Source of the DNA: a virus
Lineage: Duplodnaviria; Heunggongvirae; Uroviricota; Caudoviricetes
Reading direction: 5' to 3' (one strand)
IMG/VR virus record: IMGVR_UViG_2531839454_000020
Length of the DNA: 34,734 nucleotides
Below the pieces are notes generated by a model that was given only the letters and a program-made list of their open reading frames with translations, did not search any database and had not been told where the DNA came from. A program made the translations under genes and the position numbers. The number at the start of each line of letters is the position of its first letter. Positions within the stretch are counted from its first letter, which is position 1. Below, in pieces: positions 324 through 938 of the stretch.

Positions 324-425
324 ATGGTTGAATTTTTGATTTATCTGGCTGTAGGATTAACTATCGTATATTCACTGGCACATATTGGCATTTCTACTTT
401 GTGTAACGCTTTCAAGTATCATTAA
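324..425 (+). CDS. small hydrophobic peptide (33 aa), hypothetical
   Basis: ATG at 324 preceded by GAGGA; translation MVEFLIYLAVGLTIVYSLAHIGISTLCNAFKYH is one predicted TM helix. Below the ORF-track size cut-off. Confidence 0.3.
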   Translation: MVEFLIYLAVGLTIVYSLAHIGISTLCNAFKYH

Positions 426-478
426 TTAAATCGATGAATTGAACTATAGATGATGGTCGTTTTCAAAGAGGATTATCT

Positions 479-652
479 ATGGATCTTTTTGTCTACTTTG
501 CTACTCTGCTGTTTTTGACTATCGTCGCTGGCATTAAATTGATTTTTATATCGCTGGTGGTGTTTTTCAAATTTCTAATCGGTACGCCTTACGGCTGGGG
601 ATGCTTCTTTTTGTTTATTCTTTTTAGTTGCTGTAAAAAGGATACTAAATAA
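479..652 (+). CDS. small membrane protein (57 aa), hypothetical
   Basis: ATG at 479 with AAGAGGA 7 nt upstream; MDLFVYFATLLFLTIVAGIKLIFISLVVFFKFLIGTPYGWGCFFLFILFSCCKKDTK has two hydrophobic segments and a basic tail. Confidence 0.35.
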   Translation: MDLFVYFATLLFLTIVAGIKLIFISLVVFFKFLIGTPYGWGCFFLFILFSCCKKDTK

Positions 653-810
653 TAGTGTAATCTGCCTTTTCTCCTTATGGTTATTAACAGGGGATCTTCT
701 TTGAGGATTCCCGATTAAAAGCCATAAAAACACACTTCCAGTACAGTGTTTTCATAGTCAGGATCTATACAACATAAAAACATAACAAGTATAGATTGAG
801 TATTAATCCT

Positions 811-836
811 CCCGCCCTTCGGGGCGGTTATTTTTC
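811..836 (+). terminator. intrinsic terminator (CUUCGG-type hairpin plus T-tract)
   Basis: cccgccc-ttcg-gggcgg followed by ttattttt on the + strand. Confidence 0.55.
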
Positions 837-912
837 TGGCTTTAAAGAATAATGTAGCATTATGTTCATTATAACCTCATCTTTGTTGTGCAAACCTAAC
901 CTAAACTTACTA

Positions 913-938
913 GGGACTCTTCGGAGTCCTTTTTTTTA
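913..938 (+). terminator. intrinsic terminator (CUUCGG-type hairpin plus T9)
   Basis: gggactc-ttcg-gagtcc followed by ttttttttt; lies at the convergence of the + peptide genes and the minus-strand operon ending at 936. Confidence 0.55.

What the first reader, a model, noticed from the sequence alone, without database searches (positions are those of the whole stretch)
324..938. Two SD-preceded hydrophobic peptides on the + strand with tandem terminators
The 33-aa and 57-aa peptides are almost entirely transmembrane, have good SD sequences, and are followed by two consecutive + strand terminators (811..836, 913..938) that face the convergent minus-strand operon. They are too small for the ORF track but look like genuine small membrane proteins such as holin-like, exclusion or toxin peptides.
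Basis: seen in the sequence. Interest (0 to 1): 0.35.

Follow-up and report, generated by a model that had tools for sequence, protein, structure and literature searches.

The report
Small membrane-protein cassette in an E. coli prophage
The two tiny hydrophobic reading frames are very probably real genes for small inner-membrane proteins, carried in a swappable slot just after the small-terminase gene of a little-studied E. coli prophage; this is a useful annotation fix, not a new kind of system.

Summary
ORFs 324-425 (33 aa) and 479-652 (57 aa), their Shine-Dalgarno sites (312-316, 467-472) and two + strand UUCG-loop terminators (812-836, 912-938) are all present.

Both ORFs behave as coding sequence. 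Across 27 related loci each ORF is intact in 26. Synonymous changes are in excess only in the proposed frames (p=0.002 and p=0.0004).

They occupy a variable slot in an E. coli serine-integrase prophage family, between the small-terminase gene (terS) and a conserved, strongly folded 290-nt non-coding module. Other family members carry a single 92-94-aa three-helix membrane protein in that slot.

No promoter separates terS from the slot, so co-transcription with terS is inferred. T1 would end that unit. T2 abuts the stop codon of the convergent gene.

In this window an IS1414 copy (1-276) cuts the cassette off from terS, so expression here is doubtful.

The proteins are orphans, found only in E. 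coli/Shigella, and match no holin, toxin, exclusion or defence family.

Function is unresolved: exclusion-type accessory membrane proteins (~0.35), two-part holin or lysis timer (~0.25), type I toxin (~0.08), no function (~0.1).

Overall this is an ordinary feature, a new member of a known kind.

The parts
1..276 (-). End of an IS1414 (IS256-like) copy; the start of its transposase gene reads away from the cassette. It is inserted at hairpin B and separates the cassette from the terS gene found in relatives.
   Evidence: Near-identical to IS1414 in hundreds of plasmids over query 1-278..285. Relatives without the IS have terS here. The source contig starts inside the IS.
277..292 (+). Hairpin B (GGGGAGAACATCCCCC; GGGGGAGAACATCCCCC in relatives), the second of two conserved hairpins between terS and the cassette. 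It marks the left border of the variable slot.
   Evidence: Alignment of 27 distinct junction sequences shows a kept stem with alternative arms and loops: GGGGGGAATCACCCCCC, GGGGAG..CTCCCC, and an inverted loop TGTTC. Hairpins A+B fold at -25.1 kcal/mol, z -4.65.
312..316 (+). Shine-Dalgarno site (GAGGA) of the 33-aa gene, 7 nt before the ATG.
   Evidence: Sequence; duplex energy -6.0 kcal/mol.
324..425 (+). p33: 33-aa single-helix membrane peptide, MVEFLIYLAVGLTIVYSLAHIGISTLCNAFKYH.
   Evidence: ORF. Intact in 26 of 27 loci, with 8 synonymous and 4 non-synonymous variable sites in frame (p=0.0019) and no excess in the other frames. Hydrophobic segment 1-27. Present in public protein sets as 'Uncharacterised protein [Escherichia coli]' on hundreds of contigs.
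467..472 (+). Shine-Dalgarno site (AGAGGA) of the 57-aa gene, 6 nt before the ATG.
   Evidence: Sequence; duplex energy -5.8 kcal/mol.
479..652 (+). p57: 57-aa helical-hairpin membrane protein, MDLFVYFATLLFLTIVAGIKLIFISLVVFFKFLIGTPYGWGCFFLFILFSCCKKDTK.
   Evidence: ORF. Intact in 26 of 27 loci, 15 synonymous and 13 non-synonymous sites in frame (p=0.00036), no excess in other frames. AlphaFold model: helix 2-35, turn at T36-P37, helix 38-54, mean pLDDT 85. Only relatives of 93% identity or more in 5.8 billion proteins, and one cluster in 1.84 billion representatives.
644..940 (+). Conserved non-coding module: a structured 3' untranslated region plus both terminators. It marks the right border of the variable slot and is better conserved than either flank.
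   Evidence: Present in all 63 matching E. coli genomes, whereas the peptides are in 28. 88% mean column identity over 21 loci. The + strand fold has z -4.7 against -2.9 for the minus strand.
676..726 (+). Hairpin C: long stable stem-loop starting 24 nt after the p57 stop codon, with no U-tract after it.
   Evidence: -24.2 kcal/mol, z -6.6. Pairs with one-sided and two-sided changes: UA in 13 and CG in 8 sequences at one pair, UG/UA/CG at another.
727..752 (+). Hairpin D (AAAACAC...GUGUUUU), a weak AU-rich stem.
   Evidence: RNAalifold consensus; the pairs are invariant, so this is uninformative.
763..796 (+). Hairpin E / inverted repeat ATCTATAC-N18-GTATAGAT with an A-rich loop.
   Evidence: Sequence; RNAalifold consensus with nearly invariant pairs.
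812..836 (+). T1: intrinsic terminator CCGCCC-UUCG-GGGCGG followed by UUAUUUUUCU. Inferred to be the end of the terS-cassette transcript.
   Evidence: Scan. -13.0 kcal/mol. Stem kept in 21 of 21 loci while the loop varies (CTTCG, CGAAG, TCGAAAG). No U-tract on the minus strand.
868..894 (-). Candidate minus-strand promoter: -10 TATAAT (868-873) and -35 TTTGCA (889-894), with a 15-nt spacer. It would point back into T1, the 3'UTR and p57.
   Evidence: My own hexamer scan. The hexamers are invariant in 21 loci; the spacer is 16-17 nt in L005 and L004. No minus-strand terminator was found. This is a consensus match only.
912..938 (+). T2: intrinsic terminator AGGGACUC-UUCG-GAGUCCU followed by U8. 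Its U-run overlaps the stop codon (936-938) of the convergent 80-aa gene.
   Evidence: Scan. -11.4 kcal/mol, z -3.8. Different arms with kept pairing in L004 and L005 (GGGAGTC...GACTCCC). T2 abuts the minus-gene stop in every allele of the downstream gene.
936..1178 (-). Last gene of the convergent minus-strand operon (80-aa coiled-coil protein); included as context.
   Evidence: ORF. Annotated as a hypothetical protein in relatives. Only weak coiled-coil matches.

Best explanation
Shown:
- 324-425 and 479-652 are two genuine, translated genes for small inner-membrane proteins: one helix (p33) and a helical hairpin (p57).
- They form one allele of a variable cassette in a family of ~35-kb E. 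coli prophages that use a serine integrase. The slot lies between the small-terminase gene (terS, followed by two conserved hairpins) and a conserved, structured ~290-nt non-coding module.
- In sister prophages the slot holds a single 92-94-aa three-helix membrane protein instead.

Inferred:
- No promoter lies between terS and the slot, so the cassette is read from the terS transcript.
- The message continues through a hairpin-rich 3' untranslated region and ends at T1 (812-836).
- T2 (912-938) sits exactly where the convergent minus operon ends. It acts as a back-stop for + strand read-through and probably as the stop for the minus operon.

Function (inferred, weakest step):
- The peptides insert in the cytoplasmic membrane and act there as fast-evolving accessory proteins, most likely interfering with DNA entry of competing phages (exclusion type). 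I give this about 0.35.
- The next most likely role is a two-part holin or lysis timer, about 0.25.

This window:
- IS1414 (1-276) cuts the cassette off from terS and no substitute promoter is visible, so the genes may be silent in this strain.

The confidence value of 0.35 applies to the whole statement including the exclusion function. For the core claim alone (real small membrane-protein genes forming one allele of a cassette, ended by T1) my confidence is about 0.8.
For: Coding:
- SD strengths fall in the range of real genes.
- 26 of 27 loci are intact for each ORF. Synonymous excess appears only in the proposed frames (p33 8:4, p=0.0019; p57 15:13, p=0.00036). The 94-aa alternative behaves the same way (25:16, p=3e-7).
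- Protein variants are conservative and of constant length.

Membrane:
- Hydropathy and the AlphaFold helical hairpin.

Cassette:
- Homology breaks exactly after hairpin B and resumes at ACTAAATAATA (window 644).
- All 40 loci with both borders intact carry allele a (23 loci; p33+p57), allele b (16 loci; 94 aa) or allele c (1 locus; 92 aa). None is empty.
- The slot has 33% G+C against 41.6% for the prophage.

Transcription unit:
- No sigma-70-like site lies between terS and p33.
- Hairpins A/B and C and terminators T1/T2 are conserved, with some compensatory changes.
- T2's U-run overlaps the minus-gene stop codon.

Context:
- terS identity rests on phrog_57 (E 1.6e-10) and on PGAP's name in some relatives.
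- Serine integrase at 31588-33282. Relatives are inserted inside hicB, ycdX or a cytosine permease gene.
- IS1414.
Against: - There is no direct evidence of transcription or translation.
- Diversity is low (relatives are 92% or more identical in DNA), so the codon test rests on 12 and 28 variable sites.
- PGAP does not call either ORF in RefSeq genomes.
- One locus has a frameshift in p33 (L009), and insertion sequences hit the region repeatedly. The cassette is therefore dispensable for the host.
- Exclusion proteins must be made in the lysogen. Yet no own promoter was found, and co-transcription with terS suggests late expression.
- No similarity to any exclusion protein such as HK97 gp15/YebO, T4 Imm or P22 SieA (Pfam).
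- The slot is never empty, which fits a core function better than an optional one.
Confidence: 0.35

Rival explanations
1. Two-part holin or lysis-timing module. p33 and p57 (and the 92-94-aa single-chain alleles) are made late together with terS. They accumulate in the cytoplasmic membrane and open it for the soluble M15 endolysin encoded at 29752-30105.
For: - The endolysin has no recognisable holin or spanin beside it.
- The slot is filled in every intact relative.
- Probable co-transcription with a late gene.
- The single-chain alleles have three hydrophobic segments, an uncharged N-terminus, a charged first loop and a basic C-terminal end. This is the layout of class I holins such as lambda S105 (sequence; comparison from established knowledge).
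- Holins are notoriously diverse and are exchanged as modules.
- Two-gene holins exist, for example PBSX XhlA/XhlB (established knowledge).
Against: - The cassette is 29 kb from the endolysin in the prophage map and about 5-6 kb away in the circular map, with the integrase module in between.
- Two other small membrane ORFs (28204-28482 and 28501-28671) lie closer to the endolysin.
- The C-terminal tail is only five residues (KKDTK) and there is no dual-start motif.
- No holin family match.
Confidence: 0.25
2. Type I toxin-antitoxin-like locus. One or both peptides are membrane-depolarising toxins, held in check by an antisense RNA started from the conserved minus-strand promoter at 868-894. 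That RNA would overlap the 3' end of the message, as in Bacillus subtilis txpA/RatA or bsrG/SR4.
For: - Peptides under 60 aa and strongly hydrophobic.
- A perfect, invariant minus-strand TATAAT with a 4/6 -35 inside the conserved module.
- The module is conserved whichever protein lies upstream.
- Repeated IS hits in and next to the cassette could reflect selection against a harmful product.
Against: - No minus-strand terminator in 1-2500, and the -35/-10 spacer is 15 nt in most loci.
- One perfect TATAAT in about 700 AT-rich bases on two strands is roughly what chance gives (my estimate).
- No match to any toxin family (Hok, Ldr, TisB, Ibs, ShoB and others) or to any antitoxin RNA family in Rfam.
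- The gene is tightly linked to terS, not free-standing.
- No type I system with a 3' overlap is known in E. coli (my own knowledge).
Confidence: 0.08
3. Not functional genes. These would be chance or decaying ORFs in a T-rich spacer, and the conserved elements (hairpins, terminators) would be the only functional parts.
For: - Hydrophobic ORFs are common in T-rich sequence (13 of 106 small ORFs).
- PGAP omits them.
- The non-coding spacer and module vary less than the ORFs.
- Orphan distribution.
Against: - Frame-specific synonymous excess in both ORFs.
- 26 of 27 loci intact for each ORF; good SD sites at the correct spacing.
- The same slot holds an annotated, equally constrained membrane protein in sister prophages.
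Confidence: 0.1

Closest known systems
Phage morons encoding small inner-membrane exclusion proteins (HK97 gp15 is the founding example; PMC3594210)
   Same: Small prophage-borne membrane protein(s) with lower G+C than the neighbours, placed between conserved phage genes, followed by their own terminator, and differing between otherwise similar phages.
   Different: - No own promoter was found.
- The slot shows allelic replacement, not presence/absence.
- No sequence similarity to gp15/YebO or any other exclusion protein.
- The position is directly after terS, not in the tail operon.
- The exclusion phenotype is untested.
Holins: lambda S105 (class I, three helices), S21 pinholin (class II, two helices), two-gene holins such as PBSX XhlA/XhlB
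   Same: Very small, almost wholly membrane-embedded, extremely diverse and exchanged as modules. They are probably made late. The single-chain alleles share the predicted N-out/C-in three-helix layout of class I holins.
   Different: Not next to the endolysin, no long charged C-terminal tail, no dual start, and no family match. Other candidate holins lie nearer the endolysin.
Type I toxins (Hok, Ldr, TisB, Ibs, ShoB in E. coli; TxpA/RatA and BsrG/SR4 on B. subtilis prophage elements)
   Same: Hydrophobic peptides under 60 aa on a mobile element. A possible convergent antisense promoter overlaps the 3' region, as in the Bacillus systems.
   Different: No demonstrable antisense RNA gene (no terminator) and no homology to any toxin or antitoxin family. 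The arrangement is two tandem peptide genes linked to terS, not a free-standing locus.
Unannotated small membrane proteins of E. coli, including prophage-encoded ones such as the YnaM/YnfT family
   Same: Size (33 and 57 aa), one or two helices, missed by standard annotation, and a prophage location.
   Different: No sequence relationship. The best NCBIfam hit, for the 94-aa allele only, has E 0.69. They are found in a different prophage lineage that is absent from K-12.

Membership tests
Holin | Small protein with at least one transmembrane helix | tested here: met
   Kyte-Doolittle segments 1-27 (p33) and 1-40 (p57). AlphaFold helices 2-35 and 38-54.
Holin | Gene lies in the lysis cassette next to the endolysin gene | tested here: not met
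   The only endolysin (Peptidase_M15_3, E 3.5e-28; phrog_894) is at 29752-30105. The cassette is at 324-652.
Holin | Hydrophilic, highly charged C-terminal tail | tested here: inconclusive
   p57 ends in KKDTK (five residues, net +1 to +2); p33 ends in CNAFKYH. Both are much shorter than typical holin tails (sequence).
Holin | Sequence membership in a described holin family | tested here: not met
   No Pfam, PHROGs or NCBIfam hit for p33, p57 or the 92/94-aa alleles.
Holin | Forms lethal membrane lesions that release endolysin | not testable with these tools
   Needs induction and lysis or complementation assays.
Type I toxin-antitoxin | Hydrophobic toxin peptide of fewer than about 60 residues | tested here: met
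   33 and 57 aa, GRAVY 1.21 and 1.48.
Type I toxin-antitoxin | Overlapping or adjacent antisense RNA gene with promoter and terminator | tested here: inconclusive
   Conserved minus-strand TATAAT at 868-873 with TTTGCA at 889-894. No minus-strand terminator and no RNA data.
Type I toxin-antitoxin | Similarity to a known toxin family or antitoxin RNA family | tested here: not met
   Pfam and NCBIfam gave nothing. Rfam at E <= 10 gave only chance hits, none to Sok, Sib, Rdl, IstR, OhsC or similar.
Moron (independent accessory unit in a phage genome; PMC3594210) | Extra or variable DNA between genes conserved in related phages | tested here: met
   Sharp homology breaks at hairpin B and at window 644. 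There are three alleles of the slot. It is replacement, not presence/absence.
Moron (independent accessory unit in a phage genome; PMC3594210) | [quoted passage not shown] | tested here: met
   Slot 33.3%, terS 41.8%, prophage 41.6%. Part of the difference is expected from the T-rich codons of hydrophobic residues.
Moron (independent accessory unit in a phage genome; PMC3594210) | Own terminator | tested here: met
   T1 at 812-836.
Moron (independent accessory unit in a phage genome; PMC3594210) | Own promoter, allowing expression from the repressed prophage | tested here: not met
   No sigma-70-like site between the terS stop and p33, either in relatives or in the window. The AT-rich stretch after the terS stop is not conserved. 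Consensus scans cannot exclude a weak or non-sigma-70 promoter.
Superinfection-exclusion membrane proteins (HK97 gp15/YebO, T4 Imm, P22 SieA) | Sequence similarity to a described exclusion protein | tested here: not met
   No Pfam, PHROGs or PADLOC hit.
Superinfection-exclusion membrane proteins (HK97 gp15/YebO, T4 Imm, P22 SieA) | Blocks infection by other phages when expressed | not testable with these tools
   Needs plating assays.
Intrinsic (factor-independent) terminator | G+C-rich stem-loop directly followed by a U-run, conserved as a structure | tested here: met
   T1 and T2 were found by the scan, are stable, and keep their stems in 21 loci with loop and arm changes. Hairpin B does not qualify, because its T-run starts 7 nt after the stem.

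The most novel reading that the evidence does not exclude
The conserved 290-nt module (644-940) may be a shared regulatory RNA platform onto which interchangeable membrane-active proteins are plugged. An antisense RNA from the invariant minus-strand promoter at 868-894 would pair with the common 3' untranslated region and control whichever toxin- or holin-like protein lies upstream. That would be a 3'-overlap type I toxin-antitoxin or lysis-timer design not yet described in E. coli. As part of this reading, p33+p57 would be a naturally split version of the 92-94-aa three-helix protein. The evidence is a colinear 27% identity with BLASTP E 0.11, a global alignment score beaten by 0.05% of shuffles, and a charged residue at the same place in the long middle helix.
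Probability: 0.1. Interest if true: 0.6.

Novelty: new member of a known kind. Interest (0 to 1): 0.3.

Why it matters
- These are two real but mostly unannotated small-protein genes. RefSeq/PGAP skips them, although the same peptides occur on more than a thousand public E. coli contigs.
- The analysis defines a small orphan family of prophage membrane proteins and a recombination-prone cargo slot in a temperate phage lineage with no cultured relative.
- If the cassette proves to be the missing holin or an exclusion factor, it would explain how this phage lyses its host or competes with other phages.
- The repeated IS and mcr-1-transposon hits here mark a permissive insertion site.
- None of this changes current concepts. 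It is mainly an annotation and small-protein-catalogue gain.

Tried and rejected
- **Family searches.** Pfam, PHROGs, NCBIfam and PADLOC gave nothing for p33, p57 or the 92/94-aa alleles.
- **Rfam.** At E <= 10 over 200-1300 there were only chance hits.
- **Homologue searches.** p57 found only relatives of 93% identity or more in 5.8 billion proteins, and one cluster plus one spurious hit in 1.84 billion representatives.
- **Phage collection.** DNA and protein searches found no match for the region, p57 or the 94-aa allele. terS has one weak hit. terL is at best 43% identical to any cultured phage.
- **Other species.** A terS scan of one genome per species found nothing.
- **Split-gene idea (p33+p57 against the 92-94-aa protein).** BLASTP gave E 0.11 against the 92-aa allele and nothing against the 94-aa allele. 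Profile comparisons were not significant. A shuffle test supported only a shared architecture. I keep it as suggestive, not shown.
- **Small RNA between T1 and T2.** No + strand promoter was found. L003 tolerates a 9-nt deletion there. I did not adopt this idea.
- **Hairpin B as a terminator for terS.** Rejected as a canonical terminator, because the T-run starts 7 nt after the stem and shrinks to TTTT in allele b.
- **The module as a cos site.** Considered but not tested. RNA-type covariation and + strand U-runs argue for RNA elements.
- **Literature.** Searches found no paper on this prophage family.
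Full report
**1. The observation**

- GAGGA (312-316) lies 7 nt before the first ATG. AGAGGA (467-472) lies 6 nt before the second.
- Calculated pairing with the 16S 3' end is -6.0 and -5.8 kcal/mol. The 21 ORFs of 150 aa or more in this window have a median of -6.9. Only 4 of 106 ATG-ORFs of 30-70 aa reach -6.
- Both products are strongly hydrophobic (GRAVY 1.21 and 1.48). Hydrophobicity alone is common in this T-rich DNA: 13 of 106 small ORFs have GRAVY of at least 1.2.
- The terminator scan returns both + strand sites, stem 812-827 and stem 912-931, each followed by a T-run. Both have UUCG loops and fold at -13.0 and -11.4 kcal/mol.

**2. Where this is**

- Bases 1 to about 276 are the end of an IS1414 (IS256-like) element. 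They are nearly identical to copies on hundreds of plasmids.
- From 277 onwards the window is a prophage found in a minority of E. coli chromosomes.
- The exact p57 sequence of this window occurs on one contig of E. coli BCE034_MS-14. That contig starts inside the IS, so the far side of the insertion is not available.
- The prophage carries a large serine integrase (31588-33282, minus strand), a lambda gpA-type large terminase (6684-8591), head and tail genes, and an M15 peptidase endolysin (29752-30105).
- Relatives sit inside hicB, ycdX or a cytosine permease gene.
- No cultured phage is close. The region has no DNA match, terS has one weak hit, and terL is at most 43% identical.

In relatives without the IS, the gene just upstream of the peptides is a 184-aa small terminase subunit (phrog_57, E 1.6e-10; named so by PGAP in some genomes).

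**3. Are the ORFs genes?**

I collected 45 related loci from complete E. coli genomes and viral contigs.
- p33 and p57 always occur together. Each was found in 27 loci and is intact in 26.
- The exceptions are a 1-nt deletion in p33 (L009) and an ISApl1 insertion in p57 (L014).

| ORF | Synonymous : non-synonymous variable sites (annotated frame) | Expected synonymous fraction | p |
|---|---|---|---|
| p33 | 8 : 4 | 0.24 | 0.0019 |
| p57 | 15 : 13 | 0.23 | 0.00036 |
| 94-aa alternative (PGAP-annotated, positive control) | 25 : 16 | 0.235 | 3e-7 |

Neither alternative frame shows an excess for any of the three.

Public protein sets hold about 25 p33 variants and about 20 p57 variants. All have unchanged length and mostly conservative substitutions. 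They are labelled 'Uncharacterised' or 'putative membrane protein' and occur on hundreds to more than a thousand contigs. RefSeq/PGAP annotates neither.

An AlphaFold model of p57 is a helical hairpin: helix 2-35, a turn at T36-P37, then helix 38-54, with mean pLDDT 85.

I conclude that both are real genes for small membrane proteins. The caveat is low diversity, so the statistics rest on few sites.

**4. A variable slot**

- The DNA search with 290-940 hit 63 genomes. Only 28 carry the peptides. The rest match only from window 644 onwards.
- In those genomes the same slot holds a single 94-aa protein with three hydrophobic segments (allele b, 16 loci). In one locus it holds a 92-aa protein that is 42% identical to it (allele c). 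Further alleles exist in databases.
- Homology between alleles stops right after hairpin B (GGGGGAGAACATCCCCCGC) and resumes at ACTAAATAATA, the last two codons and the stop.
- No locus with both borders intact has an empty slot.
- The slot has 33% G+C against 41.6% for the prophage.
- All alleles are confined to E. coli/Shigella and have no family assignment.

Concatenated p33+p57 (90 aa) aligns colinearly with the 92-aa allele.
- Identity is 27% and BLASTP E is 0.11. Shared features are MxxFLxYL at the N-terminus, a charged residue in the middle of the long central hydrophobic stretch, a P/G turn, and KDTK at the end.
- The global score is beaten by 0.05% of shuffles. Shuffling also destroys the hydrophobic-block pattern, so this result shows shared architecture only.
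- Profile comparisons are not significant.

A split or fused gene is therefore suggested but not shown.

**5. Anatomy of the transcription unit**

*Between terS and the slot.*
- Two hairpins lie here (A: GATGTTGAGCTGGTCAACGTC; B). Both are kept in 27 distinct junction sequences.
- In A an A-T pair becomes G-C. In B there are alternative arms and an inverted loop.
- Together they fold at -25.1 kcal/mol (z -4.65).
- The T-run after B starts 7 nt from the stem and is short in allele b, so B is not a canonical terminator.
- Neither the tool scan nor my own hexamer scan finds a sigma-70-like promoter between terS and p33. The AT-rich stretch after the terS stop is not conserved.

Co-transcription with terS is therefore the simplest reading, but it is inferred.

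*After p57.*
- A 290-nt module (644-940) is better conserved than either flank. The cargo to its left and the last gene of the minus operon to its right both vary between relatives.
- As + strand RNA it folds far better than shuffles (z -4.7, against -2.9 for the minus strand).
- It contains hairpin C (676-726; -24.2 kcal/mol, z -6.6; pairs with one- and two-sided changes), hairpin D, an inverted repeat E (763-796), T1, a weak repeat-derived hairpin, and T2.
- Covariation is sparse: 3 of 72 predicted pairs have double changes. The sequences are too similar to show more.

*The terminators.*
- T1 has a U-run only on the + strand, so it is the natural end of the terS-cassette message.
- T2's U-run overlaps the TAA (936-938) of the convergent 80-aa gene in every allele of that gene.
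- On the minus strand, T2's stem is followed by only a moderately U-rich tract (UAGUAAGUUUAGGUU).
- I read T2 as the terminator at the convergence point. It would be a back-stop for + strand read-through and a probable, weaker stop for the minus operon.

*A possible antisense promoter.*
- A perfect minus-strand TATAAT (868-873) with TTTGCA (889-894) is invariant in 21 loci.
- The spacer is 15 nt in most loci and no minus-strand terminator follows.
- One such hexamer is about what chance gives in this AT-rich stretch.

**6. State in this window**

- IS1414 is inserted at the 5' edge of hairpin B, 47 nt before the p33 start codon. Its transposase gene reads away from the cassette.
- No promoter-like site lies on the + strand between 200 and 323.

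If the cassette depends on the terS transcript, it is probably silent in this strain. p57 here also carries G41, where most relatives have V41.

**7. Function**

Nothing identifies the function by homology, so I weigh four readings.

- **(a) Exclusion-type accessory membrane proteins (~0.35).**
  - For: small inner-membrane proteins, low G+C, allelic turnover at fixed borders, their own terminator, and a location in the variable attL-proximal end, next to another variable gene (LprI, GIY-YIG or a 101-aa protein). This fits the moron pattern typified by HK97 gp15 (PMC3594210).
  - Against: no own promoter, likely late expression, and a slot that is never empty.
- **(b) Two-part holin or lysis timer (~0.25).**
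  - For: the M15 endolysin has no recognisable holin or spanin beside it. The single-chain alleles have a class-I-holin-like layout. Expression with terS would be late.
  - Against: the distance from the endolysin, no charged tail, and two other small membrane ORFs (28204-28482, 28501-28671) nearer the endolysin.
- **(c) Type I toxin with a 3'-overlapping antisense RNA (~0.08).** Only the peptide size and the candidate promoter support it.
- **(d) No function (~0.1).** The codon pattern argues against it.

I commit to (a) as the single most likely mechanism, with low confidence. I have much higher confidence (~0.8) in the underlying claim that these are translated small membrane-protein genes forming one allele of a cassette.

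**8. Comparison and novelty**

- The locus works most like a phage moron or accessory membrane-protein cassette. It fails the 'own promoter' criterion for a moron.
- It fails the adjacency, tail and family criteria for holins.
- It fails the homology and antisense-gene criteria for type I systems.
- It is an orphan family in an uncharacterised phage lineage, so I rate it a new member of a known kind.

Interest is modest. It improves small-protein annotation and gives a testable holin or exclusion candidate, but a specialist would not be surprised.

Noticed in passing
window 1-292; L010 about 1140-1200; L032 1694-3060: Hairpin B, just upstream of the cassette, has been hit by separate insertion sequences: IS1414 in this window, IS421 (IS4-like) in strain EC416, and a 413-aa DDE-transposase element flanked by a duplicated GGAATCACCCC in viral contig L032. 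It may be an insertion hot spot, or uncoupling the cassette from terS may be selected.
   Followed up: partly
L014 1834-3334 and L017 140-1237 (equivalent to window about 619-623): In strains PE15 and HeN100, ISApl1 sits inside the p57 gene. In PE15 it lies next to a PAP2-family gene, which is the usual neighbour of mcr-1. A colistin-resistance transposon therefore seems to have landed in this cassette. I did not check for mcr-1 itself.
   Followed up: no
window 812-827 and 277-292 compared with L010, L011, L017, L022: The loops of T1 (CTTCG versus CGAAG) and of hairpin B (GAACA versus TGTTC) occur in both orientations among relatives. This is the signature of loop inversion by template switching within hairpins.
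   Followed up: no
window 644-940: This non-coding module is more conserved than the genes on either side. Those genes exist as several unrelated alleles. The module may double as a homologous 'linker' for module exchange between prophages.
   Followed up: partly
window 28204-30469: The M15 endolysin (29752-30105) has no recognisable holin or spanin next to it. Two small membrane ORFs lie 1.1-1.5 kb upstream: one of 92 aa with an N-terminal helix plus coiled coil, and one of 56 aa. Neither has a family assignment.
   Followed up: partly
window 2500-3745: A 1.2-kb stretch with no ORF of 70 aa or more and 35.6% G+C lies between the minus operon and the next + strand genes. It may be a regulatory or origin region of the prophage.
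   Followed up: no
window 16135-18255 (1136-aa ORF at 14539-17949): About 2.1 kb, covering the last ~1.8 kb of the large tail-fibre gene and ~0.3 kb downstream of it, is 97% identical to the distal long-tail-fibre gene region of the T4-like phage KFS-EC. This suggests recent exchange of a receptor-binding module between a temperate and a virulent phage.
   Followed up: no
L001 4255-5034; L011 1-226; L012 1-285: The gene between the attachment site and terS also varies between relatives: an LprI-family lysozyme inhibitor, a GIY-YIG nuclease, or a 101-aa protein. terS is therefore flanked by two cargo slots.
   Followed up: no
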